Assembly: GCA_964016885.1 (NCBI GenBank)
Contig: OZ024742.1
Coordinates: 169,942,001-170,006,000, forward strand
From: Eledone cirrhosa
Lineage: Eukaryota
DNA length: 64,000 bases
Direction: 5' to 3'
The position numbers were made by a program, and so were the translations under genes. Every line of letters begins with the position of its first letter. Position 1 is the first letter of the stretch. Shown piece after piece: positions 6,621-61,313 of this stretch. The notes below the pieces were generated by a model. The model worked only from the letters and a program-made list of their open reading frames with translations, was not told the origin of the DNA and ran no database searches.

Positions 6621-6936
6621 ATAGAAAGATTTGAATGGATACAGTTTAGTTGAAAGGAATTTATTGACACGTGTTTCTATAACAGTTACATAACCTGAAA
6701 ACAGCTGCTATCTACAAAGTTTTAGTTATGCAGACATTCAATATTTCAATGTTATTATTTACTGTCATTTCATCAGAATTCTGATGAAATGACAGTAAAT
6801 AATAACATTGAAATATCGAATGTCTGCATAACTAAAACTTTGTAGATAGCAGCTGTTTTCAGGTTATGTAACTGTTATAGAAACACGTGTCAATAAATTC
6901 CTTTCAACTAAACTGTATCCATTCAAATCTTTCTAT
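6621..6936. repeat. Spacerless 316-bp palindrome (158-bp arms, one mismatch), part of a Penelope pLTR-like element extending to about 7048
   Basis: Axis at GAA|TTC 6778/6779. The arms are reverse complements. Confidence 0.95.
6776..6900 (+). ncRNA. Type I hammerhead ribozyme with long stem-loop II (mirror copy on the - strand at 6657-6781)
   Basis: CTGATGA 6781-6787. Stem II ATGACAGT/ACTGTTAT. GAAAC-ACGT-GTC 6880-6891 gives a palindromic stem III and a GUC site. Stem I is short (ATT/AAT). Confidence 0.7.
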
Positions 6937-7304
6937 TTTTCTCCGGATTACTTTTGGAACTACAACTGGAACCGTCGAGCAAACTCTACGTGAGCTGTCA
7001 ATCTACTGTGTGTAATATTTATATTACAATACAACGGAAAATACTGTATATATATATATATATATATATAGATATACATATATATATATACATATATATA
7101 TATATAGATAATTTAATATATCTACTAACATAAGCGCACAGATGTACGCCAATGCCAGCAAATACACAGGTTATGTCATAGTACCTAGGTGGTTCAATGC
7201 AGGAGGATGCAGAACAATAATATAACAGACGTAAAATAAGAAAATTAAAAAAATTAAAAAAAATTTTTTTTTTTTTAAATTTTAACCTACTTACTTAAAT
7301 TTTC

Positions 7305-7386
7305 ACTCCAACTAATTAGTTTCTGCAATGGGATAAAGACAGTTACGTAATCTAACTGTCGAGAATTCATTGCGTCATCGGGGAGT
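7305..7386 (-). ncRNA. Hammerhead ribozyme copy with a U4C core substitution
   Basis: Same as 7877-7958 but the core reads CCGATGA. Confidence 0.7.
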
Positions 7387-7876
7387 CTATTCTCAGCTGA
7401 GTCTCCAGGCAATGCGCGGACACCGGGGACTCATATAAAAATAATAATAATTCAGTAGATGGAACAGCTAGCGGGGACTGAATTCCATGCACTGAAATCC
7501 TTGCTGCCTCTGGTCAGATGGCCGATTCTAAAGAATCAATCACGTGACACAGAGGCTAGTCAGTAGGAATGGGATGGTAAGATGACAGACGCCTACTAAC
7601 ACCCCCCCCCCCCAAAACAAAAAAAATTTAAAAGTGGTTTTGGCAGGTTTGCTCGACAAATCAGTGATTTGGAGATAAATATAGATAATTTAATATATCT
7701 ACTAACATAAGCGCACAGATGTACGCCAATGCCAGCAAATACACAGGTTATGTCATAGTACCTAGGTGGTTCAATGCAGGAGGATGCAGAACAATAATAT
7801 AACAGACGTAAAATAAGAAAATTAAGAAAATTAAAAAAAAAATTTAAAAAAAAAATTTTAACTTACTTAAATTTTC

Positions 7877-7958
7877 ACTCCAACTAATTAGTTTCTGCAA
7901 TGGGATAAAGACAGTTACGTAATCTAACTGTCGAGAATTCATTGCGTCATCAGGGAGT
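7877..7958 (-). ncRNA. Type I hammerhead ribozyme, intact core
   Basis: Minus strand reads ACTCC-CTGATGA-C-GCAATG...CATTGC-A-GAAACTAATTAGT-T-GGAGT. Stem I is 5 bp, stem III is palindromic and the site is GUU. Confidence 0.85.
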
Positions 7959-7966
7959 CTATTCTC

Positions 7967-10315
<2,349 letters not shown>

Positions 10316-10515
10316 NNNNNNNNNNNNNNNNNNNNNNNNNNNNNNNNNNNNNNNNNNNNNNNNNNNNNNNNNNNNNNNNNNNNNNNNNNNNNNNNNNNNN
10401 NNNNNNNNNNNNNNNNNNNNNNNNNNNNNNNNNNNNNNNNNNNNNNNNNNNNNNNNNNNNNNNNNNNNNNNNNNNNNNNNNNNNNNNNNNNNNNNNNNNN
10501 NNNNNNNNNNNNNNN
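10316..10515. other. Assembly gap (200 N)
   Basis: Run of N. Confidence 0.99.
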
Positions 10516-10945
10516 GATCCATTTCTCAGCCAGGAAAATGCCTACTCCCCCTAACCCATCATCCTTACCTACCCAGAATAGCTTATAGCTAAGACGCTTG
10601 CCTACGACTAGTCTCGCAGAGGCACCCCTCCATCTCACCTCTTGCACGCAGCACACATCCACCTGCCTTCTCTCCAGCATCTCCGCTATTTCAGCAGACC
10701 TACCTCTGAGAGTGCCAACATTAAGTGTTGCAACTCTGAGATGCGACGTCTTCATATTTTTCTATGCTGTTTTGTTGCTGTGCTGATAAGCTTTTTGGCA
10801 TTGATACACTGGCTGGATGCCCTTCCTAACACCAGCGCCACTTTACAGCATGGACTGGGTGCTTTTATTTGTGCCACCAGCACTAGAGAGGATGTCTTAC
10901 TAGACTCAAGGGCCCTCTCTACCCCTCCATTTTACAGCATGGTCA
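10516..10945 (-). mobile_element. 5' end of RTE family B (APE endonuclease start plus 5' UTR), cut by the gap
   Basis: Essentially identical to 16505-16935. Encodes MKTSHLRVATLNVGTL...CCVQEVRW. Confidence 0.92.
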
Positions 10946-11445
10946 TTAAAAAAAAAAAAAAAAAAAAAAAAACTTATTGACACGACTCACACACTAATAC
11001 TCATGCATACAAACCACAACCACACATACCAACACTCATTCATGCATACAATCACGCACACCACTCACAAACATATATATATATACATATATTACCGACA
11101 GTACTGATGCAAAATCAAAATCAAAGTCAAAATCAAAATCAAAATCGTCAAAATCACTATCATGTCAACTGTTGACCTTTCCCAGTCCAGTTCGGCTTGT
11201 ATATAATAACAATAACAATAATAATTGTTTGTTTACGCTGGTAATGGCGGTGGTGGATGGTGTCAGTGTGGTGGTGGTGGATGGTATCAGCGTGGTGGTG
11301 GTGGTGGATGGTCAGTGATGGTGGTGGCAGTTGTTGGTGCTGGAGTTGTTATTGTAGTTGTTACTGTTGTTGTTGTCCTTCATTTCACTGCTGCTGTTGC
11401 TGCAGACAATGGTGTTGATGCTGTTATTGCTGTCGCATATATACA

Positions 11446-13677
<2,232 letters not shown>

Positions 13678-16600
13678 TCATCATCATCATCATTTTACGT
13701 CCGCTTTTCCCTGCTTGCAAGGGTGGGACGGGTCTTATTCAGCACAGCATCTCTCCATTCGTCACGATCCCTCGTCATCTCCACCGTGAGCTTCAATGAT
13801 CTGAGGTCTGTTCTCACCACCTCCGCCCATGTTTTTCGTGGTCTACCTCTACCACGTCTTCCTTCAACTGGCATTTCCTGGCACTTCTTCACCCATCGGT
13901 CATCCTCCATGCGCATCACATGTCCATACCACCTCAGTCTCCTCTCCCGTACACTACATTCTATCCTTCTCAGACACAGTTTCTCTCTCAACACATTTAT
14001 GCTGGGTCGTTCACGCACATTTACACTGCACATCCAACGGAGCATGCTTGCCTCATTTCTCTCCAGCCGTCGCATATCTTCTGCGGTAGCTGCCCATGTC
14101 TCACTACCATGCAGCATCGCGCTCCTCACACAGGCATCATACAACCGGCCTTTCGTACGCAGGGAGAAACCCTTCTTCGTCAACAGAGGAAGCAGCTCCC
14201 TAAACTTCTTCCAACCCGTCCTTATTCTAGATACTATGGCCTCGGAACACCCTCCTCCCATGCTAATCTGATCTCCTAGGTACCGGAAGCTATCCACCAC
14301 TTCTATAGCACCCGCCTGCATTTGAAAAATGTGTCTATCAATGCAACTTCTACTGTCTAATTTCCTTGTACATCTACTGCATACGTATTTCTCCCTACCT
14401 GTTAGTTTGCCTGCTATCCCGCTACATCTCTTGTGTACCCAGGACCTACATTGTGTGCATTTTATAGAATTATGCCAGTTCCTTTTCTGCATATCGAACA
14501 TGGCCATTTCCCTGACGGAATCAGGGTTTTGTCCTCTTTTCTACTCATCAACACTTTTGTCTTAGCTAGATTTACTCTCAGTCCTCTTGCTTCCAACTGC
14601 TGTTTCCATAGCCGGAATTTATTCTCTAGCTCCTCTACTGATTCTGCCATAAGAGCCAGATCGTCAGCATAGAGAAGTTCCCATGGACAGCCAGTCTTAA
14701 ACTCCTCTGTTATGGCTTGGAGGACTATAATGAACAAGAGCGGGCTGAGGACCGAACCCTGATGTACTCCTACTTGTATCTGGAATTCCTCACTAAACTC
14801 CATTCCTACCCTGACTTTACTGAGAGTACCTCTGTACAAAGTTTGCACTGTCCTTACAAGCCATTCCTCAACACCCAGCTTCCTTAGGAACCACCAGATG
14901 ACAGATCGGGGTACCCTATCAAAGGCCTTCTCTAGGTCAACAAAGGCTAAGTATAGTGGCTTATTCTTCTCTAAGAACCTCTCTTGCATTTGTCTCACCA
15001 AGAAGAGGGCATCTGTTGTACTCTTCCCAGGCACAAAACCAAACTGCATCTCATCTAGTTTGACCCTTTCTCTAATTAGTTGTGCTAAAATCCTTTCTGC
15101 CACTTTCATAACCTGATCTATCAGTTTTATACCCCTATAATTGCTCCTCTCCAAAGCATCCCCTTTACCTTTGTAGCAATTTATGAGAATACTGCTGCAC
15201 CAGTCTTTGGGTATGACACCACCATATATAGCCTGATTGATTATGCGTGCAACCAGTTTAGTGCCTACGTCCCCTGATGCCTTCAGCATCTCAGCAACTA
15301 TTCCCGATGGTCCGGCCGCCTTACCATTCTTCATTTCCCTAATTGCCTCTTGGACCCTATATTCGTCAATCTCAATAGCTGGTCCCTCTGTCGGATCTAC
15401 CAAGGGTAATTTTTCTCTCTCCCATTCGTTCTCCACATTCATCAGTCTCTCATAATGACATTTCCAGGCCTCCTTTTTCTGGTCATTCGTGACACTAAGT
15501 ACACCGGCATCATCCCGGACACATTTATCACCAACAACATCCTGATTTGCATTGACACACTGCCTTGCAATGTGATCTTCCCGTCGCAGAACATTGGCAA
15601 ACCTCCTACTCTCTGCCTCCCTGCGTGCTAAGTACACCTGGCGTCTAGCTTCTCTCTTAGTGGCTGTATATTCTTCCCTACTCCCACCCTTATTCCAAGC
15701 CTTCCATGCTAGTCTTTTGTCTCTAATAGCCTTATCTACACTGCTGTTCCACCACCAGGTCACTCTCTGTCTGGTTGGAGCTCTGCTCCAGCCACAGGTT
15801 TCATCAGTAGCCTTCAGCAAGTTGTCACGTAAGAACTTCCAGTTATTATCTATGTCATACGTCTCTAAATCGTCTTCTTTTTCGTCATATACATCTTGAA
15901 GGGCTTTCCTAAATTTGAATTTTAGTGAAAGGTCTTTTAGCTTCCAGACCTTTCTTCTCCACACCTTCCTATATGTCTCATTCCATCTCTTGCTTACTGA
16001 GATATCACTAACAACTAACCTATGCTGTGGGGTACATTCTTCCCCAGGGTATGCCTCGGTATTAGACACTATCTGCCTGTCCCGCTGCCTAACTAGCAGG
16101 AAGTCAATCTGGCTTATGTGCTCACCAGATTTGTAGGTTATTAGGTGATTGGCAGGTTTCTGGAAGTTTGTGTTGCAAATAGTCAATGTACTTGCATCAC
16201 AAAATTCAAGAAGTCTCACTCCTTCTTCATTTCTTGAACCGTAACCGTGCCCACCATGTACCCCAGTGTAACCATCCTGGAGCTGTCCAACATGACCATT
16301 GAAGTCTCCTGCTAGCATAACGATGTCTCCGTCCTCTGTCATTGTGGTTGTTTGCAAAAGTTGCTCATAAAAGCAGTCTTTCTCATCTTTGCCTAGGCCT
16401 GCTTGGGGAGCATAGACCGAGATGATTGTCAGTAGTCTCCTACCTACAACTAATCTAAGCTTAATTATTCGATTACTAACTCGAACTACCTCTATTGTCT
16501 TATTGATCCATTTCTCAGCCAGGAAAATGCCTACTCCCCCTAACCCATCATCCTTACCTACCCAGAATAGCTTATAGCTAAGACGCTTGCCTACGACTAG

Positions 16601-16935: not shown

Positions 16936-17435
16936 TAAAAAAAAAAAAAAAAAAAAAAAAAAACTTATTGACACGACTCACACACTAATACTCATGCATA
17001 CAAACCACAACCACACATACCAACACTCATTCATGCATACAATCACGCACACCACTCACAAACATATATATATATACATATATTACCGACAGTACTGATG
17101 CAAAATCAAAATCAAAGTCAAAATCAAAATCAAAATCGTCAAAATCACTATCATGTCAACTGTTGACCTTTCCCAGTCCAGTTCGGCTTGTATATAATAA
17201 CAATAACAATAATAATTGTTTGTTTACGCTGGTAATGGCGGTGGTGGATGGTGTCAGTGTGGTGGTGGTGGATGGTATCAGCGTGGTGGTGGTGGATGGT
17301 CAGTGATGGTGGTGGCAGTTGTTGGTGCTGTAGTTGTTATTGTAGTTGTTACTGTTGTTGTTGTCCTTCATTTCACTGCTGCTGTTGCTGCAGACAATGG
17401 TGTTGATGCTGTTATTGCTGTCGCATATATACAAA

Positions 17436-17491
<56 letters not shown>

Positions 17492-17530
17492 TATATATAT
17501 ATATATATTGCTATATATATATATATATGC

Positions 17531-17561
<31 letters not shown>

Positions 17562-17642
17562 TATATATATATATATATATATGCTATATATATATATATA
17601 TATATGCTATATATATATATATATATGCTATATATATATATG

Positions 17643-17698
<56 letters not shown>

Positions 17699-17712
17699 TA
17701 TATATATATATG

Positions 17713-17793
<81 letters not shown>

Positions 17794-18448
17794 TATATAT
17801 ATATATATATATATATGCTATATATATATATATATATGCTATATATATATATATATATGCTATATATATATATATATATGCTATATATATATATATATAT
17901 GCTATATATATATATATATATGCTATATATATATATATATGCTATATATATATATATATGCTATATATATATATATGCTATATATATATATATATGCTAT
18001 ATATATATATATATGCTATATATATATATATATGCTATATATATATATATATGCTATATATATATATATATATGCTATATATATATATATATATGCTATA
18101 TATATATATATGCTATATATATATATATATGCTATATATATATATATATGCTATATATATATATATATATGCTATATATATATATATATATGCTATATAT
18201 ATATATATATGCTATATATATATATATATGCTATATATATATATATATGCTATATATATATATATATGCTATATATATTTATATATGCTATATATATATA
18301 TATATATGCTATATATATATATATATATGCTATATATATATATATATATGCTATATATATATATATATATGCTATATATATATATATATATGCTATATAT
18401 ATATATATATATATATATGCTATATATATATATATATATATATATATG

Positions 18449-18517
<69 letters not shown>

Positions 18518-18554
18518 TATATATATATATATATATATATATGCTATATATATG

Positions 18555-18596
<42 letters not shown>

Positions 18597-18796
18597 TATA
18601 TATATATATATATATATATATATGCTATATATATATATATATATATATATATGCTATATATATATATATATATATATATATGCTATATATATATATATAT
18701 CATATATATGCTATATATATATATATATATATATATATGCTATATATATATATATATGATATATATATATATGCTATATATATATATATATATATG

Positions 18797-18830
<34 letters not shown>

Positions 18831-18876
18831 TATATATATATATATATATATATATATGCTATATATATATATATGC

Positions 18877-18907
<31 letters not shown>

Positions 18908-19002
18908 TATATATATATATATATATATATGCTATATATATATATATATATATATGCTATATATATATATATATATATGCTATATATATATATATATATA
19001 TG

Positions 19003-19036
<34 letters not shown>

Positions 19037-19060
19037 TATATATATATATATATATATATG

Positions 19061-19106
<46 letters not shown>

Positions 19107-19136
19107 TATATATATATATATGCTATATATATATGC

Positions 19137-19167
<31 letters not shown>

Positions 19168-19186
19168 TATATATATATATATATGC

Positions 19187-19217
<31 letters not shown>

Positions 19218-19246
19218 TATATATATATATATATATATATATATGC

Positions 19247-19277
<31 letters not shown>

Positions 19278-19429
19278 TATATATATATATATATATATAT
19301 ATATGCTATATATATATATATATATATATGCTATATATATATATATATATATATATGCTATATATATATATATATATATGCTATATATATATATATATAT
19401 ATGCTATATATATATATATATATATATGC

Positions 19430-19460
<31 letters not shown>

Positions 19461-19525
19461 TATATATATATATATATATATATATGCTATATATATATAT
19501 ATATGATATATATATATATATATGC

Positions 19526-19556
<31 letters not shown>

Positions 19557-19646
19557 TATATATATATATATATGATATATATATATATATATGCTATATA
19601 TATATATATATATATGCTATATATATATATATATATATATATATGC

Positions 19647-19677
<31 letters not shown>

Positions 19678-19728
19678 TATATATATATATATATATATAT
19701 ATATGCTATATATATATATATATATATG

Positions 19729-19772
<44 letters not shown>

Positions 19773-19796
19773 TATATATATATATATATATATATG

Positions 19797-19852
<56 letters not shown>

Positions 19853-19947
19853 TATATATATATATATATATATATGCTATATATATATATATATATATGC
19901 TATATATATATATATATATATATGCTATATATATATATATATATATG

Positions 19948-20001
<54 letters not shown>

Positions 20002-20163
20002 TATATATATGATATATATATATATATATATATGCTATATATATGATATATATATATATATATATATATATATGCTATATATATGATATATATATATATA
20101 TATATATATATGCTATATATATGATATATATATATATATATATATATATATGCTATATATATG

Positions 20164-20244
<81 letters not shown>

Positions 20245-20338
20245 TATATATATGATATATATATATATATATGCTATATATATATATATATATATATGAT
20301 ATATATATATATATATGCTATATATATATATATATATG

Positions 20339-20425
<87 letters not shown>

Positions 20426-20454
20426 TATATATATATGCTATATATATATATATG

Positions 20455-20498
<44 letters not shown>

Positions 20499-21135
20499 TA
20501 TATATATATGCTATATATATATGCTATATATATATGCTATATATATATGCTATATATATATGCTATATAAGCTATATATATATGCTATATATATATGCTA
20601 TATATATATGCTATATATATATGCTATATATATATGCTATATATATATGCTATATATATATGCTATATATATATGCTATATATATATGCTATATATATAT
20701 GCTATATATATATGCTATATATATATTCTATATATATATACTATATATATATGCTATATATATATGCTATATATATATACTATATATATATACTATATAT
20801 ATATGCTATATATATATACTATATATATATGCTATATATATATGCTATATATATATGCTATATATATATATGCTATATATATATGCTATATATGCTATAT
20901 ATATATGCTATATATATATGCTATATATATATGCTATATATGCTATATATATATGCTATATATATATGCTATATATATATGCTATATATATATGCTATAT
21001 ATGCTATATATATATGCTATATATATATGCTATATATGCTATATATATATGTTATATATATATGCTATATATATATGCTATATATATATGCTATATACAT
21101 ATGCTATATATATATATATATGCTATATATATATG

Positions 21136-21179
<44 letters not shown>

Positions 21180-21195
21180 TATATATATATATATG

Positions 21196-21243
<48 letters not shown>

Positions 21244-21269
21244 TATATATATATGCTATATATATATGC

Positions 21270-21300
<31 letters not shown>

Positions 21301-21312
21301 TATATATATATG

Positions 21313-21350
<38 letters not shown>

Positions 21351-21562
21351 CTATATATATATATATATATATATATGCTATATATATATATGCTATATAT
21401 ATGCTATATATATATATATATATATGCTATATATATATATATATATATATATGCTATATATATATATATATGCTATATATATATATATATATATATATGC
21501 TATATATATATATATATATATATATATGCTATATATATATATATATATATGCTATATATATG

Positions 21563-21597
<35 letters not shown>

Positions 21598-23375
21598 TAT
21601 ATATATATGCTATATATATATATATATATATATGCTATATATATATGCTATATATATATATATATGCTATATATATATATATATATGCTATATATATATA
21701 TATATATGCTATATATATATATATATGCTATATATATATATATATATGCTATATATATATATATATATGCTATATATATATATATATATGCTATATATAT
21801 ATATATATATGCTATATATATATATATATGCTATATATATATATGCTATATATATATATATATATGCTATATATATATATATATATGCTATATATATATA
21901 TATATGCTATATATATATATATATATGCTATATATATATATATATATGCTATATATATATATATATATGCTATATATATATATATGCTATATATATATAT
22001 ATATGCTATATATATATATATATATGCTATATATATATATATATATGCTATATATATATATATATATGCTATATATATATATATATATGCTATATATATA
22101 TATATATATGCTATATATATATATATATATATGCTATATATATATATATGCTATATATATATATATATGCTATATATATATATATATATGCTATATATAT
22201 ATATATATATGCTATATATATATATATATATATGCTATATATATATATATATATATGCTATATATATATATATATATATATGCTATATATATATATATAT
22301 GCTATATATATATATATATATATGCTATATATATATATATATATATGCTATATATATATATATATATATGCTATATATATATATATATATATGCTATATA
22401 TATATATATATATACTATATATATATATATATATATACTATATATATATATGCTATATATATATATATATATATATATATGCTATATATATATATATATA
22501 TGCTATATATATATATATATATGCTATATATATATATATATGCTATATATATATATATATGCTATATATATATATATATATGCTATATATATATATATAT
22601 ATGCTATATATATATATATATGCTATATATATATATATATATATATGCTATATATATATATATGTATGCTATATATATATATATATATATGTATGCTATA
22701 TATATATATATATATATATGCTATATATATATATATATGCTATATATATATATATATATATGCTATATATATATATATATATATGCTATATATATATATA
22801 TATGCTATATATATATATATATATATGCTATATATATATATATATATATGCTATATATATATATATATATATATGCTATATATATATATATATATATGCT
22901 ATATATATATATATATATATGCTATATATATATATATATATATGCTATATATATATATATATATATATGCTATATATATATATATATATATATGCTATAT
23001 ATATATATATATATGCTATATATATATATATATATGCTATATATATATATATATATATATGCTATATATATATATATATATGCTATATATATATATATAT
23101 ATATGCTATATATATATATGCTATATATATATATGCTATATATATATATGCTATATATGTATATGCTATATATATATATATATATATGCTATATATATAT
23201 ATATATACAATTAAGTTATTTGTTTTTATATATATATATATATATATATATACTATATATATATATGCTATATATATATATATATGCTATATATATATAC
23301 TATATATATATATATATATGCTATATACTATATATATATATATATGCTATATATATATATATATATATACTATAT
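17436..23375. repeat. (TA)n microsatellite with GC interruptions
   Basis: Seen directly. Confidence 0.98.
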
Positions 23376-23590
23376 AGTTTTAATATAGATGAGATTCTAC
23401 AGGACTAGAACTGTTTCATTCATTAGAAATCATCAGGAATCTCATATATATTATCAGGAGATTCCTGATTTCTAATGAATGAAACAGTTCTCGTCCTGTA
23501 GAATCTCATCTATATTAAAACTGTTTTACTCTGCTATGTATTGAGTACCTTACTTACTGTGGTTACCTCCGATTCAACCCGGAATAACGT
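23376..23590 (+). mobile_element. Small pLTR-like element with an inverted repeat (23376-23443 / 23458-23522) in (TA)n
   Basis: Arms are reverse-complementary apart from a 3-nt indel and one substitution. A unique tail runs to 23590. Confidence 0.8.
23391..23443 (-). ncRNA. Type I hammerhead ribozyme
   Basis: Minus strand reads GAGATTC-CTGATGA-T-TTCTAATGAA-T-GAAACAG-TTCTAGTC-CTGT-A-GAATCTC. Stem I is 7 bp, stem III is 4 bp and the site is GUA. The + strand copy 23458-23507 has lost 3 nt of the core. Confidence 0.85.
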
Positions 23591-25932
<2,342 letters not shown>

Positions 25933-26740
25933 ATATTTTCTATTTAATTTTGGTTGTAATTCTTTTATGCTTACTGCCTCTGTAATTTGCCTAAATATAG
26001 CATAAGATGTACATCTTAGCATAAGATCATCTTAGCATAAGATGTACTGAAGGACAATGTGGAAACAAAAATATAGTGTACATAGGTGAGACAGCTCGTA
26101 GTATAGGGGAACGAATAAATGAACACTGGCGAGACCTTCAAGATAATAAAGAATCATCTGTGCTCTACCAACATGCTAAGATAGAACACAGGGGTAGATT
26201 AGAGAACATAGAAATAAAAATAGAATCCACACACAGAAAAGATGCAATGTTTAGGCAAATTACAGAGGCAGTAAGCATAAAAGAATTACAACCAAAATTA
26301 AATAGAAAATATGAGTGGAACAGCAACATCACAACTTACAATTAAGGACAAAATGAAAACACACACACACATAGAACAAACAACCAACCAACAATAAATA
26401 AATAAACAAATAGATAAATGAACACAAACACACACAGACACCCGGATGTGGCGCATGCGCAAACTGAGCACACAACACACACACAGAAACAAAATGGCGT
26501 AGGATAGAAGAAAGGAAAGGCACAGAAACAAAGAAAGGAATCCCCAGTCACTGAAGAGGTCACATAGTGTGTGACGAAAGGACTATGACTATATATAAAC
26601 AACTATCTGGTTGTGGAACCAACCAACCAACCAGAAATTTAAAAGTTTCTAGATTTGTAAATTTATAAATATATAATAAATTGAAGTGAAAGCAACTGGT
26701 GCGTGTGTTTCTTATTGGCAACATGACCCTCCCAAAGTAT

Positions 26741-26745
<5 letters not shown>
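25933..26745 (+). mobile_element. Penelope-like element 3' fragment: GIY-YIG endonuclease C-half (26076-26345), 3' UTR and an inverted 5' segment
   Basis: YIGETARSIGERINEH...[21 protein letters not shown]. 25933-26003 is an inverted copy of 26242-26312. Confidence 0.88.
26546..26590 (+). ncRNA. Minimal type I hammerhead ribozyme in the Penelope 3' region
   Basis: AGTCA-CTGAAGA-G-GTCACA-TAGTG-TGTGAC-GAAAGGACT-A-TGACT. Stem I AGTCA/TGACT, minimal stem III. Confidence 0.8.
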
Positions 26746-26813
<68 letters not shown>

Positions 26814-27054
26814 TATATATATATATATATATATGGTATATATATATATATATATATGGTATATATATATATATATATATATGCTATATATATATATGCT
26901 ATATATATGGTATATATATATGGTATATATATATGCTATATATATGCTTTATATATGGTATATATATATATGCTATATATGGTGTATATATATATATATA
27001 TATATGGTATATATATATATATATGGTATATATATATATGGTATATATATATAT

Positions 27055-27089
<35 letters not shown>

Positions 27090-27208
27090 TATATATATAT
27101 ATATATATGGTGTATATATATATGGTATATATATATGGTATATATATATATGGTATATATATATATATGGTATATATATATATATGGTATGTATATATAT
27201 ATATATAT

Positions 27209-27241
<33 letters not shown>

Positions 27242-27532
27242 TATATATATATATATATGGTATATATATATATATATATATATGGTATATATATATATGG
27301 TATATATATATATATATGGTATATATGGTATATATATATATATATATGGTATATATATATATATATATGGTATATATATATATATGGTATATATATATAT
27401 ATGGTATATATATATATATATATATGGTATATATATATATGGTATATATATATATGGTATATATATATATATATATGGTATATATATATATGGTATATAT
27501 ATATATATATATATGGTATATATATATATATT
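26746..27532. repeat. (TA)n microsatellite with GG interruptions
   Basis: Seen directly. Confidence 0.97.
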
Positions 27533-27533
27533 G

Positions 27534-28745
27534 TCATCATCACCGTTTTACGTCCGTTCTTCCACGCTAGCATGGGTTAGACGGGTTGTCCTGTTGTGGG
27601 CAGTGTCTGGTCGGCTGACCATGCCTTGCTCATACAGGAACTGATCTGGCTTGATTTCTACAGCTGGATGCCCTTCCTAACACCAACCTCATTTACAGTG
27701 AGTGCTGGGTGCTTTTTCGTGGCGCCTACACGTCCACTTTACAGTGTGGGCTGGGTGCTTTTTTGCCGTGGCACCTCCACGACCACCTTGCGGTGGGGGG
27801 GGGGGCATATTGTTTATATGCTTCAGCATGTACCCATGGGAGGTCGGGTACCCTGTATTACTGCGTGACGCCAGAAGTCACGGTCGTGTGTCATTGACTT
27901 TGAGAGGTGTAGTTGGGTAAGGTCGGCTTTTATCACCTCATCCCAAGTCATCTTGGGTCTCCCCACTCCGCGGTTTCCATCAACTTCTAGTGCTCTGCAC
28001 CTTTTTATGCAGCTGTCATCCTTCATACGCATCACATGTCCATACCAGCGTAACCGCCTCTCCTGCACGCAGCATTTGATTCCTCTTATGCTCAGTCTCT
28101 CTCTCAATTCATTTATGCTTTGTCGTTCACGTATATTACTGTTACACATCCATCGGAGCATGCAGGCTTCGTTTCTCTCTAATCTACGTAAGTCTTCCAC
28201 CTTCAGCGCCCAGGTCTCACTACCATGCAACATCGCTGTTCGGATACACGCATCATACAGTCTGCCTTTCATTCTGAGGGAGAAGCCTTTTGCAGCTAGC
28301 AGTGGTAGTAGTTCCCTAAACTTCTTCCATCCCGTTCTTACCCTAGTTATTGTACTTTCTGAGCACCCACCTCCGTTGCTAATTCGGTCACCTAGGTAGC
28401 AGAAGCTGTCTACTGTTTCTACAGGGCCCTCCCAGAGATTGGTGGTACTTGTTTCCTGTGGCTGTTTGCTTGCTGTTTCAGCACAGCTGCTGCATGTGAA
28501 TCCTACATTCTTAATTAAGCTTCCTGAGATCCCGCTACATCTCTTGTGTACCCATTGTTTGCATTTGGGGCAAAGAATGGAGTTCCTACCTACACCTTTC
28601 CTACATACTGAGCAAGGCCATTTCCCTGAGGGGATCTGGGTTCTGTTTTCTCGTCTACTTATAAGGACCTTAGTCTTTGTCATGTTGACTTTGAGGCCCT
28701 TTCTCTCTAGTCCCTGCTTCCAGGTTTGGAATTTATTCTCTAATT
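27534..28745 (-). mobile_element. RTE-clade LINE family C, 5'-truncated (ORF 27823-28683)
   Basis: C4HC3 finger, YLGD, HGSETW and RRLRWYGHV. The 3' UTR has the AGGAAGGGCATCCAGC module. (GAT)n-like tail. Confidence 0.93.
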
Positions 28746-29202
28746 GTATATATATATATATATATATGGTGTATATATATATATATATGGTATATATATA
28801 TATATATATATATATGGTATATATATATATATATGGTATATATATATATATGGTATATATATCTGCTATATATATGGTATATATATATGATATATATATC
28901 TGCTATATATGGTATATATATATGATATATATATCTGCTATATATATGGTATATATATATATGGTATATATATCTGCTATATATATGGTATATATATATA
29001 TGATATATATATCTGCTATATATATGGTATATATATATATGATATATATATCTGCTATATATATGGTATATATATATATGATATATATATCTGCTATATA
29101 TATGGTATATATATATATGATATATATATCTGCTATATATATGGTATATATATATATGATATATATATCTGCTATATATATGCTATATATATATATATAT
29201 GC

Positions 29203-29235
<33 letters not shown>

Positions 29236-30649: not shown

Positions 30650-30960
30650 GACATAAATACCCCCTCCGCCTTTTGTGGTATTTTTCTCTTAGCTCTTTTT
30701 CTTGACCGCTGTAACACGTGATAAGTACCCCCTCCGCCTTTCGGGATACTATCTCGCGTCCTACGGACGTGTTTTGAAACTCTAAATGAGGTATCCTCTT
30801 GATAAGTCGGCAAACCTCAGAAAAATACTGCATCTCTATGATGTAATGTCTTTGCATAATATCAACGAAACTACGTAGTCGAGAATAATGATGGAATTTA
30901 TGTATACTATATCTTTTTATACATATCTAATGTTTCTTCTTTCTTTATAATGTATTATAC
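30650..30960 (+). mobile_element. Non-coding pLTR-like fragment between (TA)n tracts
   Basis: Contains the hammerhead at 30792-30887 and a duplicated taccccctccgccttt motif. Confidence 0.6.
30792..30887 (+). ncRNA. Type I hammerhead ribozyme, U3:A8 core variant with long loop II
   Basis: TATCCTC-TTGATAA-GTCGG...TCAAC-GAAACTACGTAGT-C-GAGAATA. Stem I pairs 6/7, stem III is palindromic and the site is GUC. Confidence 0.78.
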
Positions 30961-46369: not shown

Positions 46370-47350
46370 TTGTGTAGGTGTCATGACAAAAAGCACCCCA
46401 CCCACACTGTAAAGTGGTTGTGTAGATGACACGACAAAAAGCCCCCAGCTCACACTGTAAATGTGGTTGGTGTTAGGAAGGTCATCTAGCCATAGAAACT
46501 AAACCAAAACCAGTCCTGTATGAGCAAGACATGGTCATCTGACTTAGCATTTCTCACAATGGGGCTAGCACTGGTGTGATATCATCAAATGCTAACAGAA
46601 TTATGTGAAGTATTTGTTAGTGTGTTGCAGGTAACATAGTACCATCCTGATGTAAAGTGAATGAACATATATATATATATATAAATGCAAAAAGTAAATG
46701 GAAACAACAAAGCAAATAGTACAATGAAGAAGCATATTAGTTTGATGCTTGATATAGTACGAAAAATGTCTACGTTTTAGACACTAGTCCTTCATCAGAA
46801 GATAGAATGAGAAATAAAAGGCAAAATAGAAAGATAGAGAGTGAGAAGAGGAAGAAATGGAAAAATATTTGTTATGGCTAAGTGATGAGTCTTGTCACTC
46901 TGGAGTTTCACCTGTGCACTCAGAGGATCATAAAATACTCACGTAAAACTCCAGAATAACAAGACTCATCACTTAACAATAATATTGAATATTTAAACTC
47001 TACTTCGGTATTGAGTACTCATTTTCATATCTGTCAATATTACCCTGGAAGATGGTCATGTTGGTGACACAACAAGAAACACCCAGTTCACTTTGTAAAG
47101 TGGTCGTGTCGATGGCATGACAGGAAGTACCCAGTCCAACCTGTCAGCTGGTCGTTTTGGTGCCATGATAAAAAGCACTTAGTTCATGCTGTAAATGTAG
47201 TTGGCATTAGCAAGGGCATCCAGCCATAGAAACCAAGCCAGAAACAGTTCTGTATGAACAAGACATGGTCATCTGATCTGACTCGTCTCATAACTGGACA
47301 ACTTGTCTAACCCATGCTAGCATGGAAAAATAGACATTAAATGTTGATGG
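46370..47350 (+). mobile_element. Two RTE-derived non-coding elements (about 46370-46560 and 47050-47350) flanking a degenerate pLTR-like fragment. Related copies at about 50120-50465, 54100-54525, 55475-55655, 57160-57410 and 56555-56930 (-).
   Basis: 1-4 copies of a ~48-bp unit, then ggttgg(c/t)gttaggaagggcatccagc, then cccatgctagcatggaa...(GAT)n. Confidence 0.75.
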
Positions 47351-48866: not shown

Positions 48867-48901
<35 letters not shown>

Positions 48902-51960: not shown

Positions 51961-52093
51961 AACATACAGCAGCTGTGAGTAGTATTGCCACAGGAAATAC
52001 TGTCCACTTTTCTTGTATCTAAGAGTTTATATGAAGAGCTTTTTAAAACTATTTTCCATAGTTAAAAAAACCCCTACATTAAAGCAGCTTACA

Positions 52094-53311
52094 TTAACCC
52101 TTTAGCATTTACATTACTTCTCTATGCTGACGATCTGGTTCTTATAGCAGAATCAGTAGAGGAGCTAGAGAATAAATTCCGGCTATGGAAACAGCAGTTG
52201 GAAGCAAGAGGACTGAGAGTGAACCTAGCTAAGACAAAAGTGTTGATGAGTAGAAAAGAGGACAAAACTCTGATTCCGTCAGGGAAATGGCCATGTTCGA
52301 TATGCAGAAAAGGAACTGGCATAAATTCTATAAAATGCACACAATGCAGATCCTGGGTACACAAGAGATGTAGCGGGATAGCAGGCAAACTAACAGGTAG
52401 GGAGAAATACGTATGCAGTAGATGTACAAGGAAATTAGACAGTAGAAGTTGCATTGATAGACACATTTTTCAAATGCAGGCGGGTGCTATAGAAGTGGTG
52501 GATAGCTTCTGGTACCTAGGAGATCAGATTAGCATGGGAGGGGGATGTTCCGAGGCCATAGTATCTAGAATAAGGATGGGTTGGAAGAAGTTTAGGGAGC
52601 TGCTTCCTCTGCTGATGAAGAAGGGTTTCTCCCTGCGTACGAAAGGCCGGTTATATGATACCTGTGTGAGGAGCGCGATGCTGCATGGTAATGAGACATG
52701 GGCAGCAACTGCAGAGGATATGCAACAGTGGGAGAGAAATGAGGCAAGCATGCTCTGTTGGATGTGCAGTGTCAATGTGCGTGAACGACCCAGCATGAAT
52801 GTGTTGAGAGAGAAACTGTCTGAGAGGGATAGAATGTAGTGTGCAAGAGAGGAGACTGAGGTGGTATGGACATGTGATGCGCATTGAGGATGACCGATGG
52901 GTGAAGAAGTGCCAGGAAATGCCAGTTGAAGGAAGACGTGGTAGAGGTAGACCACAAAAAACATGGGCGGAGGTGGTGAGAACAGACCTCAGATCACTGA
53001 AGCTCACGGTGGAGATGACAAAGGACCGTGACAAGTGGAAAGATGCTGTGCTGAATAAGACCCGTCCCACCCTTGCAAGCAGGGAAGAGCGGACGTAAAA
53101 TGATGATGATGATGATGATTACTCTATATTTGCTATTGTATTTTCACGGTAAACACTTTATTTCACATATCAAATCTAAGGGATTTTGATATTATTTATT
53201 TTGAGAACAATACCTTAATATAAGTATGAGCAGTCAGTTATGGCCAGTTTGAATAGAAAGAGGTGTGAGAATTCTGGCCAGATAGAGCCGGTTTAAATGC
53301 TAAAGGGTTAA
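52094..53311. mobile_element. TTAA-flanked (piggyBac-type) MITE interrupted by an RTE
   Basis: ttaaccctttagcattt ... aaatgctaaagggttaa. Confidence 0.8.
52121..53119 (+). mobile_element. RTE family B, 5'-truncated at YADD and frameshifted near 52820
   Basis: Highly similar to the reverse complement of 13678-14675. (GAT)n tail. Confidence 0.95.
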
Positions 53312-55656: not shown

Positions 55657-55705
<49 letters not shown>

Positions 55706-55859
55706 CATTACATAATAAACGAAAACAATATAATTATTTCATTACCAAAGGTTTCAAGAAACTAGATGATTCTTGCAGAAACATTGCTATGTAATTAAAT
55801 AGCTCTGTACAATACATAGAGCACACTTCTTTCCTTTACCTTTTCTACAGAAATACCTA

Positions 55860-55901
<42 letters not shown>

Positions 55902-56363: not shown

Positions 56364-56396
<33 letters not shown>

Positions 56397-57063: not shown

Positions 57064-57924
57064 TACACCATAAGTTTCACAAAAGTAACAAATTTAAGGA
57101 CAGACAATCTTTTGCCACATCTTTCATCGTTGATGTCAAAAGATCAGTAAAATTTATTGCTAGTGTCACAATAACATGCACCTAATATACTCTGTAAAGT
57201 GATACTTCTGGTGTCGCAGTAAAATGCACCCAGTACAGTCTGTATGGTGGTTGGTTTTAGGAAGAGCATCCAGCTGTTGAAACCATGCCAAATATGGAAC
57301 ATATGAACAAGATAAGATCTGTTTGACATGTCTAATCATAGAATATGACAATCTGCCATCTAACTGGTGCTGGCATAGAAGAAGGATGTACAATGATGAT
57401 GATGATGATGATAAGGTAGAAAACATGAGAATGGAATTAGTAGGTGTGTTTAACATGTCTGTTTTATCAAATAATTGTTAATAAACTGAAGAAAGCTTTC
57501 TGGTAGATTGTAAATAAATAAATATGATAACATGAAGAGATAAATACATTGGTGTGATATTAATTTGATATAAAAATTATATTTTAGATTATTCTCCAGT
57601 TATCAATATATTATCTCATATTATAATTAAGATAGCAACATGAATAGCATCAGAACAGAAAAATCTTTTAAGGAACAATTTTGATGATCAACTGGTTTTA
57701 GTATGATTGAAAGAAATATGGGGGAAAATAGATCAAATACCTTAGAAAAGAACATGATTTCAAAATTGCTGTCATGGAAATGAATCAAATTTTGATGTTA
57801 TTTCTGATATGTTAACTGAGAAAGCCTATCATGTTACAGCTCACATCTATTTTATCCTTAAGAAATTGTAGAGATATACTACTGACAGGTTCTGTATTGA
57901 GATCTATCGAATATTTCTCTATCA

Positions 57925-58312
57925 TGCTGGTGCCACAATAAAATGTACCACTAATGATACCACAATAAAGTGGTAGCATTAGTGCCACAATAAAAAATAC
58001 CCATCCCACTCTTTAAATTGATAGTGTTGGTACTATGATAAAATGCACCCAGCCTTCTCTGTAAAGTAGTAGTGTTGGTACCATGATAAAATGCACCCAT
58101 CCCTATCTGTAAAGTGGTAGTCTTGTTGCCAAAATAAAAAGTACTCAGTTCACTCTGTTAGGTGGTAGTACTAGTGCCAAACCGAAAAGCATCCAGTCCA
58201 CCTTGTAAGGTGGTAGTACTGGCACTATGATAAAATGCATCCAGCCTACTCTGTAAAGTGGTAGTGTTGGGGCCATATTAAAAAGCACCCAGTCTGACTT
58301 TGTAGGAGTAGT
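57925..58312 (+). repeat. Tandem array of about 7 full and 2 partial ~48-bp RTE-UTR-derived units
   Basis: Unit gtagtgttggtaccatgataaaatgcacccatccctatctgtaaagtg and variants. Confidence 0.85.
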
Positions 58313-60034
58313 AATTGAACTAGATTCAGTGGATATTCAATATGGTTGGTCATGTATAGCCCTTTTGTTACTATATATATATGGACCCAAGTGAGTCGTA
58401 AGGGTACCATATTGCTATCAGTGTTTCTAGGGCATTTTATAACCTGGCGGAGCCCATCTCCTCTCATGGTCTGAATACAGCAGATTTCTTCCGAGAGTGA
58501 GAGAAAAGAAGTGAGAAAGAGATATAGTGGAAGAATTGACCCCAGTACTAGACTGGTACTTTTTTTATCGACCTTAAATGAATAAAAGGTAAATAAAGTT
58601 GACTTCAGCAGGATTTGAACGCAGAGAGAAGAAAATCTGAATAAAATACTGGAAAGCATTCTATCCAATGTTCTAGCAACTCTGCCAGTTCACTGCCTAT
58701 TTTTGTTACTATACTTCTAATGAAAGATACTATGATTTTAAAATAATTTTGAAAATAATTTGGAGGGATAATTAAATAACTTCCTTATTATTTATCTGCT
58801 GTTTGGAATATAACTTAATAATGGTTCTTACATAAAATTAGGATAAACATTTTAAAACATAGTTTTATATCATGAAGTCATGGGCTGTTTGGTATAAGAA
58901 GAGTTAAAGGATTGTGTAAGAATTGAGAGACATGTTAGCTTTTACAGGAAAGATCTAGTGGGTAAGACATATAGTTACTGTCCTTTCTTTCTGATTAATC
59001 ATTTTGATACTGAACCACCTGAAATCATCCCTAGTTCTATAACACAAACCTTTATTTTAAAATGTTTATCTACGAACCTTCAGTCATAATTTTATGTAAC
59101 AGTCTTTAATTTATGCTCAAAACACCAGATACATAATTATTTTTAACATTAGCACAAGGCTAGCAATTTGGAGAAGGGGGGAAATCAATTATATGGATCC
59201 CAGTATTTGACTGGTACTTTTATTTTATTGACTCTAGAAGGAGGAAAGACAAAGTTGATCTTGGCAGGATTTGAACTCAGAACATAAAGGAGCATATCGA
59301 AATGCTTCAATGTATTTTATCCGACTTTGCTGAATCCATCATTAAATAATGGGGAAAATAATTGTTACTAGATCTTTCTAAATTCTTGATTATTTTCAAA
59401 ATTATTTGAAAATTACAGTTAATATTTTTCATTAGAGATATGGTAACAAAAGGGTTAAGTCATAATAAAATGAAAGAGAAAAAAAAAAAGAAATTTAGAA
59501 CAAGGTCTGTTTTATGGTCGACCACTTCCACTTGAATAGTGAGCTTGACTGAATGCAGTAATCCAATTGACTGAGAACAAAGATGGCCTCATGCATAGTT
59601 ATTTTATTATTTATGTTTATTTATATTGTGTTGCTTTGTTCCTGTCAACAGCTGCACTATTCTATCTGCTAGATAACTTATGTATTGCTGTGTGTGGCTT
59701 TGTTCCTGCAATAGTTAGGTCAAAAGATAAAAGAAAATACATATTTTGTTGCTTCAATGCTGCAACATGTTTTTTCCTATTGGAGACTATAATATTTCAT
59801 GAATACAATCATCACCATAATTATGGCTGTTTTTCCATGCTTGCATGGGTTAGAATAGATCTCTCTCTAACACACACACAGTTTCTTTGAAATATCACTC
59901 AGGCATTCATCAACCCATGGTTAAAATAGATACTTTCTCAAGGTGTTATGCAGTGGGATTGAACCTGAAACCACATGGCTGCAAGCATGGAAAAGTGGAC
60001 ATAAAATGACGATGAGGATTATATATATATATAA

Positions 60035-61313
60035 ATGAAAGGATTACAAAGGAGATTATATACTGTCAGAACATGTTTATATAAAAGCACTTACGTACGT
60101 TTCGCCCGAAAAGGGCTTCTCAAGGGCATAGAAAACTACAGAGTGTTCGGTACAGGACCCAGAAGGGGTCAAAGTTCATTTTTAGTTCAAACATATAGGT
60201 TGTTATTGACACAGAGCAAGGGGAGTAACTCTGGCCGGTGTTTGAATAATTGTCCCCAAAGGGCTTATTGCCCGTTCACATGATGGTGGTTTTCCATTGC
60301 TAATTTGTGCGTGCTACTTTACTATTGTCAATTCAGACAGGGTCTGAGATGCATAGTTGGTGCACAGATGTTTATTTGCATAGCCTACCCACCGGAGTGT
60401 TATGGTTTGGTGCAGGGGGACCCAGTTTATGGTTTTCAGGTCTGTTACTTCCCACCTCAAAAAAAACTGCTGTATCCTGTGTCTGCAGTTTATCACTGAT
60501 TCTGCTCTGCTGTTGATGAGCTCGAGGGGTGCTCTTATGATATGCTCGCATTTCCTCTTGAAATTGTACGGTGCTGCCCTGCTGACAATTTCCCAGTGTG
60601 TGGAGAAGCTGATGTTGGAGTCTTTTAATGTTGTGATGTAATTGGCGAGTGACATGGAGTGTCTCAGTTTATTGTTTCTAAAAGAGTGGAGATGTTGGAA
60701 ATCTAGTTTTGAACGGGCTGGAAGTGGCCCCTATATAATGTTTAACGCTATTATGGCTAGTTATGGTGCACCTATAAATAATACTATCTGTCAGGCAACT
60801 TCCCCTAAGTGGGCACCTTTCCCGGTCCTGATAGTTGCATTTTCAGTCGCGGTCGCTCCTGGTGCCCAAAGTCAAGCTATTACTATTGCTACCTATGTTA
60901 TTATCTATGCCACCGCCTCTCTCTCTGTAGTTAGTACTATTATATCCTATGGTGTGCGGGGTAGTACCATTATTGCTCCGCACACCGCAGCGCCTCCTGT
61001 TGCTGCCGCGTGACCCGTACAGGTCACCAGCATGTTCCCCAGTCTCATCACAGTTATGTCGGTTGCTTCTGTTGGGGCTGCCGCCAACACTATTGGGCAC
61101 TGCAAGGGAAACGTTAAGGCTATTAGGGTTGCTGTCAAGTCTAGGCGTATCGGTGCTAAGGTGTCGTGTTTTGGTGATCTTACTGTAATTAGTCATCCCT
61201 ATGAAGTCTGCTAAGTTAGGAGTAGTGGAGAAGGATATTTTAATATTGTTCTTATTGAGGATTTTCCTGTATTTATGGTTGGGTGGGAAATTCTTCTCTA
61301 AGGCTTCGAAGAA
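60035..61313 (-). mobile_element. Degenerate Penelope-like element 3' half (RT C-terminus, Cys linker, GIY-YIG endonuclease, pLTR)
   Basis: Minus strand reads NFPPNHKYRKILNKNNIKISFSTTPN, then KCN..DRERCPLRGSCLTDSIIYRC...HYIGATSSPFKTRF, then LANYITTLKD...WEIVSRAAPY...CRH. Contains frameshifts. Confidence 0.85.
60087..60128 (-). ncRNA. Minimal hammerhead ribozyme, U3:A8 variant
   Basis: Minus strand reads TGCCC-TTGAGAA-GCCC-TTTTC-GGGC-GAAACGTACGT-A-AGTGC. Perfect stem II and palindromic stem III. Stem I is imperfect. Confidence 0.68.

What the first reader, a model, noticed from the sequence alone, without database searches (positions are those of the whole stretch)
6621..60128. At least six different hammerhead ribozymes in small elements parked in (TA)n tracts
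Seen: type I hammerhead cores with supporting stems at 6776-6900 (+/-), 7305-7386 and 7877-7958 (-), 23391-23443 (-), 26546-26590 (+), 30792-30887 (+) and 60087-60128 (-). There is also a decayed one at 46765-46800. Their stems are unrelated in sequence and each host element abuts (TA)n. Four have palindromic stem III sequences (ACACGTGT, ACTAATTAGT, ACTACGTAGT, ACGTACGT). Known: Penelope-like elements carry minimal type I hammerheads in their pLTRs, and palindromic stem III permits dimeric cleavage. Inference: the TA tracts are a landing zone for a diverse, mostly non-coding ribozyme-retroelement community driven by GIY-YIG/RT enzymes like those at 26076 and 60400-61300.
Basis: partly seen in the sequence, partly recalled or inferred. 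Interest (0 to 1): 0.8.

Follow-up and report, generated by a model that had tools for sequence, protein, structure and literature searches.

The report
Genome flooded with Penelope hammerhead ribozymes
The six hammerhead-ribozyme motifs are real: they are the tail ends of six unrelated jumping-element families that insert into TA repeats (four cut-down copies of protein-coding Penelope-like elements, two non-coding tandem repeats likely moved by them), a known arrangement that here is estimated to occur about 0.2-0.36 million times in the genome, though cutting activity is untested.

Summary
Observation confirmed. All six motif families, plus the decayed seventh, are there. A strict descriptor finds 4 in the window against 0.13 in shuffles; three listed copies are damaged. 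Four families (A, C, D, F) are 5'-truncated ends of protein-coding Penelope-like elements (PLEs): three carry Hydra-clade motifs and one is Neptune/Nematis-like with intact 1,226-1,240-codon open frames. Two (B, E) are non-coding 550-590-nt tandem units with the PLE insertion signature. TA targeting holds: 89 of 114 motifs in a random 1.2 Mb have (TA)6+ within 200 nt downstream, against 14% background. The window is ordinary for this genome, which averages 95 motifs per Mb (about 215,000-360,000 in all, 42 sequence clusters in the sample). pLTR hammerheads, palindromic stem III, U3:A8 and (TA)n targeting are in print, and Hydra elements are listed in Octopus. The scan noted similar PLE hammerheads in other genomes. 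Possibly new: the scale, TA-like patches at most element 3' ends, and family C copies starting about 30 nt after a TATA box. No cleavage or RNA evidence.

The parts
6624..6779 (-). Family A inverted arm (hammerhead core 6776-6770, predicted cut after 6666, short 3' end on TA); stem I only 3 bp
6778..7046 (+). Family A direct arm: pLTR end of a Hydra-type coding PLE (core 6781-6787, long loop II, stem III ACACGUGU, predicted cut after 6891), long 3' end on TA
7683..7966 (-). Family B upstream partial unit with intact hammerhead (core 7953-7947, stem III ACUAAUUAGU, predicted cut after 7882)
7107..7682 (-). Family B full non-coding tandem unit (576 nt here, 550-558 elsewhere); hammerhead core 7381-7375 mutated to CCGAUGA
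23377..23445 (-). Family C inverted arm with intact hammerhead (core 23436-23430, 4-bp stem III, predicted cut after 23398)
23455..23590 (+). Family C direct arm (pLTR end of a Hydra-type coding PLE); 3-nt deletion in the core; long 3' end on TA
26043..26345 (+). Family D: C-terminal GIY-YIG endonuclease fragment of a Neptune/Nematis-like PLE
26346..26745 (+). Family D 3' UTR/pLTR with hammerhead (core 26551-26557, extra G before stem II, stem III AGGACU, predicted cut after 26585), short 3' end on TA
30650..30955 (+). Family E truncated copy of a 580-590-nt non-coding tandem unit; U3:A8 hammerhead (core 30799-30805, stem III ACUACGUAGU, predicted cut after 30880)
46684..46813 (-). Family G decayed hammerhead (core 46798-46792, GAAA lost) and tail on TA
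60034..60313 (-). Family F pLTR with U3:A8 hammerhead (core 60123-60117, stem III ACGUACGU, predicted cut after 60092; A.C mismatch at pair 1.1)
60314..61323 (-). Family F broken RT-thumb/GIY-YIG region of a Hydra-type PLE

Best explanation
These motifs are type I hammerhead sequences in the terminal repeats of several unrelated Penelope-like retroelement families and of two non-coding tandem units likely mobilised by them, and they sit beside (TA)n because the elements likely insert there by target-primed reverse transcription. SHOWN: each motif belongs to a dispersed multi-copy family. A, C, D and F continue upstream, in other copies, into RT/GIY-YIG coding sequence. B and E form head-to-tail 550-590-nt arrays without an ORF. 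Each family has two fixed 3' ends, which abut TA while the element itself carries no TA run there. Head-to-head inverted arms are common. INFERRED: the GIY-YIG domain nicks (TA)n; the nicked ends prime at two internal sites of the RNA, probably helped by 1-6 nt of TA-like sequence in the template; the two cDNAs run 5'-ward and are joined head to head, giving the palindromes at A and C. Most cDNAs run through the ribozyme, so the template is mostly uncleaved (or re-ligated) RNA. PREDICTED: the motifs with palindromic or 2-bp stem III cleave weakly as monomers and better as dimers or with the element's protein; C, with a 4-bp stem III, could work as a monomer. The solo copies in this window are mostly dead ends. 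B and E would give 550-590-nt RNA circles.
For: Multi-copy families: first-look candidates 844 (A), 1460 (B), 1300 (C), 366 (D), 1131 (E), 1073 (F), with 40 scored each. D: three loci with 1,226-1,240-codon open frames (YVDD, DKS, CX4CxxC, GIY-YIG), two of them flanked by the same hammerhead in direct repeat. C: two direct-repeat hammerheads 5,422 nt apart around a broken RT (DKT, YRDD), and an EN with CxCX5C, CxxC and CxH in four other regions. A and F: ENs with CxCX5C, CxxC and CxH. B and E: longest ATG ORF 35-61 aa per unit; no PLE-protein hit in 20 B loci; 3 of 20 E loci have PLE hits, none shared between copies. TA: 100 of 113 other copies end at (TA)4+. 89 of 114 random motifs have (TA)6+ within 200 nt downstream, against 14.3% background and 28 of 112 upstream. 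Core: C3:G8 106 and U3:A8 8, all other 3/8 combinations 0-4; single changes at G5, A6 or A9 give 4-5 hits. Covariation in 33 family-C rows: 19 two-sided changes against 9.5 shuffled (0 of 500), all in stem I. Literature match: PMC4209133, PMC8557442, PMC11167929, PMC7229834.
Against: No cleavage or expression data. No Rfam match at gathering score. Of 8 folds only C gives the hammerhead three-way junction as the minimum-energy monomer. Covariation was tested in one family only, with rows anchored on stem III and picked for a core in register (33 of 86 rows); stems II and III show no two-sided change, and related rows can beat the shuffle. No autonomous partner was found for B, E or G. Clade calls rest on motifs, not on a tree with reference sequences. 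Pfam did not recognise the full D protein and scores its EN fragment below cut-off (E=7e-4). RTE-type ends are also TA-enriched (33 of 69), so part of the association may be retention in safe regions.
Confidence: 0.88

Rival explanations
1. One reading: a mainly non-coding community of ribozyme parasites (retrozymes) that borrows a few PLE enzymes.
For: B and E are ORF-less tandem units. Only 15 of 114 random motifs have a same-strand PLE ORF remnant upstream in the same TA-bounded block, and 34 of 42 clusters have none.
Against: Four of six window families lead into their own ORF once longer copies are read. The four largest random clusters each have ORF-linked members, and the median upstream block is only 480 nt, so missing ORFs mostly reflect truncation.
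Confidence: 0.15
2. The TA association comes from retention or from TA growth after insertion, not from targeting.
For: RTE-type 3' ends are TA-enriched too (48% against 14%). Many element 3' ends continue in TA-like sequence in the template, which could seed a repeat.
Against: The hammerhead association is tighter than for RTE (78% against 48%, P=4e-5) and one-sided. Both 3' ends and the inverted arms abut TA directly, while tandem junctions have no TA run. (TA)n preference is published for Hydra elements.
Confidence: 0.12
3. The motifs are inert structural signals (for protein binding or RT pausing) that no longer cleave.
For: Most arms run through the cut site. In the anole PLE, ribozyme mutants did not affect insertion in vitro (PMC11167929).
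Against: Catalytic positions and the 3:8 pair are kept across 42 clusters with unrelated stems. Two insertions have arms ending exactly at the cut site (L036, L295), though that is within chance.
Confidence: 0.15
4. Chance matches in AT-rich DNA.
For: No Rfam support; the window is 29% GC.
Against: 4 against 0.13 in shuffles; 114 against 0 in reversed DNA; conserved multi-copy families.
Confidence: 0.01

Closest known systems
Hydra-clade PLEs (Craig et al. 2021, PMC8557442), including Hydra-1_Obim of Octopus bimaculoides
   Same: Families A, C and F have a C-terminal GIY-YIG, a CxCX5C linker, CxxC and CxH motifs, hammerheads and (TA)n targets; C also has DKT.
   Different: The published elements are generally under 3 kb. 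Family C has a 5.4-kb unit with a 3.4-kb microsatellite-rich 3' UTR, and A has a 3' UTR of about 0.9 kb. Copy numbers here are high.
Neptune/Nematis PLEs with a CX2-5CxxC linker (as described in PMC8557442)
   Same: Family D has RT then EN, a CX4CxxC linker, pLTR hammerheads, a tail and inverted copies.
   Different: It has DKS instead of DKG and a long Asn/Thr/His-rich N-terminal region. Neptune versus Nematis was not resolved.
Minimal and palindromic-stem-III hammerheads of metazoan PLEs (Cervera and De la Pena 2014, PMC4209133)
   Same: Type I topology, short stem I, extra base at the start of stem II, palindromic stem III, U3:A8 variant, many sequence families per genome, opposite-strand pairs.
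   Different: None of the 114 sampled motifs is the loop-less minimal form. Several have loop II of 50-120 nt, or mismatches at 10.1-11.1 instead of G-C. The estimated count is far above the 2,000-9,000 given there.
Non-LTR retrozymes (Cervera and De la Pena 2020, PMC7229834; bioRxiv 10.64898/2026.07.22.740005)
   Same: Families B and E are AT-rich non-coding head-to-tail units with one type I hammerhead each, found as monomers to long arrays.
   Different: Units are 550-590 nt, above the 170-400 nt circles of the 2020 paper but inside the 51-972 nt range of the preprint. They insert in (TA)n and show PLE tails and inverted arms. Circular RNA was not shown here.
Poseidon element of the green anole, in vitro (Frangieh et al. 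2024, PMC11167929)
   Same: Two internal RT start sites giving a tail; uncleaved RNA as main template; AT-rich target.
   Different: Tails here are about 60-170 nt rather than 30-40. There the start site was not homologous to the cut DNA; here 7 of 11 resolved 3' ends continue in 3-6 nt of TA-like template.

Membership tests
Type I hammerhead ribozyme | Core C3UGANG8A (or U3:A8), GAAA and NUH in type I order | tested here: met
   Met in A (both arms), upstream B, C(-), D, E, F; broken in downstream B, C(+) and G.
Type I hammerhead ribozyme | Stems I-III can form | tested here: met
   Window copies B, C, D, E pass the descriptor. Relatives of A and F pass it, but the window copies have a damaged stem I.
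Type I hammerhead ribozyme | Stem covariation among homologues | tested here: inconclusive
   Stem I of family C: 19 two-sided cells against 9.5 shuffled, pair 8-54 AU15/CG9. None in stems II and III; pairs-with-change count not above shuffles (100 of 500).
Type I hammerhead ribozyme | Match to an Rfam hammerhead model | tested here: not met
   0 matches at gathering score in six loci. Long loops and short stems are the likely reason (inference).
Type I hammerhead ribozyme | Self-cleavage | not testable with these tools
   Needs in vitro transcription.
EN+ Penelope-like element | ORF with PLE-type RT and C-terminal GIY-YIG | tested here: met
   D intact. C and F broken RT plus EN. For A only the EN end was in view. 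Absent from B and E units.
EN+ Penelope-like element | pLTRs with hammerhead flanking the ORF | tested here: met
   D: L267, L268. C: L334. For A and F only the downstream pLTR was seen.
EN+ Penelope-like element | Inverted 5'-truncated copy and optional tail (two 3' ends) | tested here: met
   All six families.
Hydra clade (A, C, F) | CxCX5C linker; CxxC and CxH in the EN | tested here: met
   A: CNCTYPDNC, CKLC, CRH. C: CNCLNKEAC, CDLC, CMH. F: CNCRDRERC, CELC, CRH. Definitions.
Hydra clade (A, C, F) | DKT motif in RT | tested here: inconclusive
   Present in C; that region was not in view for A or F.
Hydra clade (A, C, F) | RT phylogeny with reference Hydra elements | not tested
   No reference sequences were held as session sequences.
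Neptune/Nematis (D) | CX2-5CxxC linker before a C-terminal GIY-YIG | tested here: met
   CIDKKCITC in the intact frames.
Neptune/Nematis (D) | RT phylogeny separating Neptune from Nematis | not tested
   No reference set.
Non-LTR retrozyme (B, E) | Non-coding tandem repeat with a type I hammerhead in consecutive units | tested here: met
   B spacing 550-558 nt, arrays of 6 or more units; E spacing 580-590 nt; ORFs up to 61 aa.
Non-LTR retrozyme (B, E) | Expressed as linear and circular unit-length RNA | not testable with these tools
   No RNA holder listed.

The most novel reading that the evidence does not exclude
This genome carries the largest and most varied load of hammerhead ribozymes yet described (about 0.3 million motifs, near 95 per Mb, at least 40 families). 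In it, Hydra- and Neptune-type PLEs and true retrozymes share one route: nicked (TA)n ends pair with short UA patches inside the element RNA to prime two cDNAs. That would give PLE microsatellite targeting and the 'tail' a base-pairing explanation, tie retrozymes directly to PLE enzymes, and leave tens of thousands of perfect hairpins that could feed RNA editing.
Probability: 0.3. Interest if true: 0.65.

Novelty: new member of a known kind. Interest (0 to 1): 0.36.

Why it matters
The parts are known, so the window itself is ordinary. The genome-level picture is what counts. The highest counts in the papers I read are 126,247 motifs in the 28-Gb axolotl genome and about 9,000 minimal motifs in Xenopus tropicalis; the sample here implies 215,000-360,000 in 3.0 Gb, by a different descriptor. 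Many young families with intact ORFs, fixed double 3' ends and non-coding passengers make this a good system for open questions: what the PLE hammerhead is for, how the inverted arm and tail form, and whether PLE enzymes move retrozymes. The passages searched in a 2026 Octopus vulgaris repeat annotation do not mention ribozymes or retrozymes.

Tried and rejected
Expression: no RNA holder was listed for unit B. The three guessed-RNA runs laid matched only its poly-C/poly-A stretch, and the runs of unknown kind were uninformative; this is no evidence either way. Rfam: the E-value scan was swamped by TA-hairpin miRNA matches. A general TATA box upstream of the hammerhead was rejected: it sits at -34/-35 only in A and C among 114 motifs. 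A general rule that 5' ends fall at the hammerhead's start was rejected: true for C, not for A or B, whose other copies extend further, nor for ten references, where start points also reflect subfamily divergence. Pile-up of 5' ends at the cut site was not found, only L036 and L295. Family C as a stand-alone 140-nt element was rejected after longer ORF-linked copies were found. No intact C or F ORF was seen in the regions read. Pfam gave nothing for the full D protein; the PDB gave only weak matches to a GIY-YIG intron endonuclease (E=0.22) and an RT (E=0.64). Paper searches for hammerhead ribozyme + octopus (4 of 5 listed) and hammerhead + cephalopod (15 of 129 listed, mostly sharks) showed no cephalopod ribozyme survey; most subscription papers are not in the library.
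Full report
OBSERVATION. The window is 29% GC, with 22% of its bases in (TA)6+ tracts against 4% in a random genome sample. It lies on a 379-Mb contig of a 3.0-Gb genome. The closest named relative of one element's protein is from Octopus vulgaris (70% identity), so the host is probably an octopod (inference). I call the families A-G in window order. Every core listed is present. My own type I descriptor (core, GAAA, NUH, stems I and II, paired or palindromic stem III) finds B, C, D and E in the window, against 0.13 per shuffle over 30 shuffles. A fails because its stem I is truncated to 3 bp, F because of one mismatch, and the downstream B copy, the + arm of C and G because of core damage. 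Relatives of A, F and G pass the descriptor elsewhere. Rfam finds nothing at gathering score.

WHAT EACH FAMILY IS. Genome searches gave 366-1,460 first-look candidates per family, 40 scored each; these are not copy numbers. D: the EN fragment has at least 150 matches at 97-100% identity. Of four regions fetched for their long frames, three hold 1,226-1,240-codon open frames with YVDD, a CX4CxxC linker and GIY-YIG, and two of these have the hammerhead on both sides. A: longer copies run through a 3' UTR of about 0.9 kb into a GIY-YIG with CxCX5C, CxxC and CxH. C: longer copies reach, 3.4 kb upstream, the same kind of EN, and one region has two direct-repeat hammerheads 5,422 nt apart around a broken RT with DKT and YRDD. 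F: relatives show YRDD, CxCX5C, CxxC and CxH. These motifs define the Hydra clade (PMC8557442, section read), whose supplement lists an Octopus bimaculoides family with (TA)n preference. B and E are head-to-tail units of 550-558 and 580-590 nt with ORFs of at most 61 codons, which fits non-LTR retrozymes. G was not traced to a parent.

INSERTION ANATOMY. Each family has two fixed 3' ends, about 60-170 nt apart, and head-to-head arms are frequent, often with one arm ending at each site. This is the published PLE tail and inverted copy (PMC8557442), which in the anole element marks two internal RT start sites (PMC11167929). B and E share this signature, which is the main reason to infer that PLE enzymes move them. 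Where the template continues past a 3' end it holds no TA run, but in 7 of 11 resolved ends it continues with 3-6 nt matching the TA target; one end matches 2 nt and three match 1 nt (F's long end unresolved). By my rough estimate a 3-nt match has under 10% chance per end at this base content. This hints at primer-template pairing, which the anole study did not see.

TA ASSOCIATION. 100 of 113 other copies of the six families end at (TA)4+; five of the 13 misses are B copies inside arrays whose end was out of view. I drew 120 random 10-kb stretches from 22 large contigs, with positions capped below true contig length and small contigs left out. Of 114 motifs, 89 have (TA)6+ within 200 nt downstream, against 14.3% of random positions and 28 of 112 upstream; motifs are not fully independent (95 locus-by-cluster pairs). 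As a control, 33 of 69 RTE-type 3' ends also have TA within 200 nt, fewer than hammerheads (P=4e-5), so TA tracts attract or retain other elements too.

SCALE. 114 motifs in 1.2 Mb is 95 per Mb (bootstrap 72-121), or 215,000-362,000 genome-wide, counting arms rather than insertions, in 42 clusters at 80% identity. The reversed control gave 0. The window's 4 are below the 6.1 expected (P=0.27). Stem III is a perfect palindrome in 72 of 114; cut triplets are AUA 51, GUA 33, GUU 14, GUC 6, others 10. Position 3:8 is C:G in 106 and U:A in 8, of which some look like chance; each other pairing gives 0-4. Fifteen of 114 have a PLE ORF remnant upstream, including members of the four largest clusters.

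IS IT UNDER SELECTION AS A RIBOZYME? In family C I collected 86 distinct rows by stem III sequence alone and aligned 33 with the core in register, leaving out most junction duplicates. Stem I shows compensation (pair AU 15, CG 9; 19 two-sided cells against 9.5 shuffled, 0 of 500), while stems II and III are paired but invariant. Only C folds into the hammerhead junction as a monomer among 8 folds, in line with reports that such motifs need dimers or protein (PMC4209133; PMC11167929). Nothing here shows cleavage.

TEMPLATE 5' ENDS. Among 30 C copies chosen by their tail only, 14 direct arms (the window's included) begin 0-8 nt upstream of the core, and 15 of 18 detected inverted arms end between -8 and +1. 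A TATAAATA lies 35 nt upstream of the core in long copies of several subfamilies. The simplest reading is that the RNA starts at stem I and is copied uncleaved to its end; stalling at stem I is the alternative. An earlier unchecked note on a shark genome reports the same clustering; I tested it here only for C, and it is not general.

PAPERS SEEN. PMC4209133: parts 1-2 of 4. PMC11167929: parts 1-2 of 4. PMC8557442: passages, section 11 and supplement rows; its hammerhead file S2 was not read and may already show motifs like A, C or F. PMC7229834 and PMC13282606: passages. bioRxiv 10.64898/2026.07.22.740005: parts 1-2 of 5, supplements closed; its invertebrate sample named three insects and one anthozoan. 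The link between hairpins and RNA editing in cephalopods is recalled, not tested.

VERDICT. Real, and a new set of members of known kinds: Hydra-type and Neptune/Nematis-like PLEs plus two retrozyme-like repeats, all (TA)n-targeted. Interest 0.36, carried by the genome-wide scale and two testable mechanistic hints.

Noticed in passing
window 55725-55755 (-): 3' half (GAAA, stem III, GUA, tail) of a further hammerhead family next to the TA tract at 55661-55703; the core is missing.
   Followed up: partly
window 25937-25998: Short inverted piece of family D's EN coding region at the 5' end of the D insertion, ending on the TA array.
   Followed up: partly
window 27531-28746 (-), 52066-52839 (+), 62319-63542 (-): RTE-like LINE fragments; the two scanned have a PHD-finger match in or after the RT region. 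The first is flanked by TA arrays on both sides.
   Followed up: partly
window 34677-39096: Minisatellite of 152 copies of a 29-nt unit, 93% matches.
   Followed up: no
window 2672-5269, 7967-13678, 17425-25936, 26745-30093: Kilobase-long (TA)n arrays with regular GC/GG/C/T interruptions that change in blocks, unlike the short TA tracts typical of the genome sample.
   Followed up: no
L331:400-4026: An intact-looking 1,209-codon LINE open frame (endonuclease, RT, C-terminal zinc fingers by eye) nested in or beside a family C element.
   Followed up: no
L020:1465-1505, L135, L138, L178, L255: TATAAATA 35 nt upstream of the family C core with conserved spacing but divergent spacer; family A has TATAAAAA at -34.
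   Followed up: partly
L178:1011-1056 and related loci: In the ACCACUGGU family, 4 of 16 arms start inside the palindromic stem III, suggesting fold-back there.
   Followed up: no
random sample L121-L240: AUA is the commonest predicted cut triplet (51 of 114), in families whose stem III is itself a TA-type palindrome.
   Followed up: no
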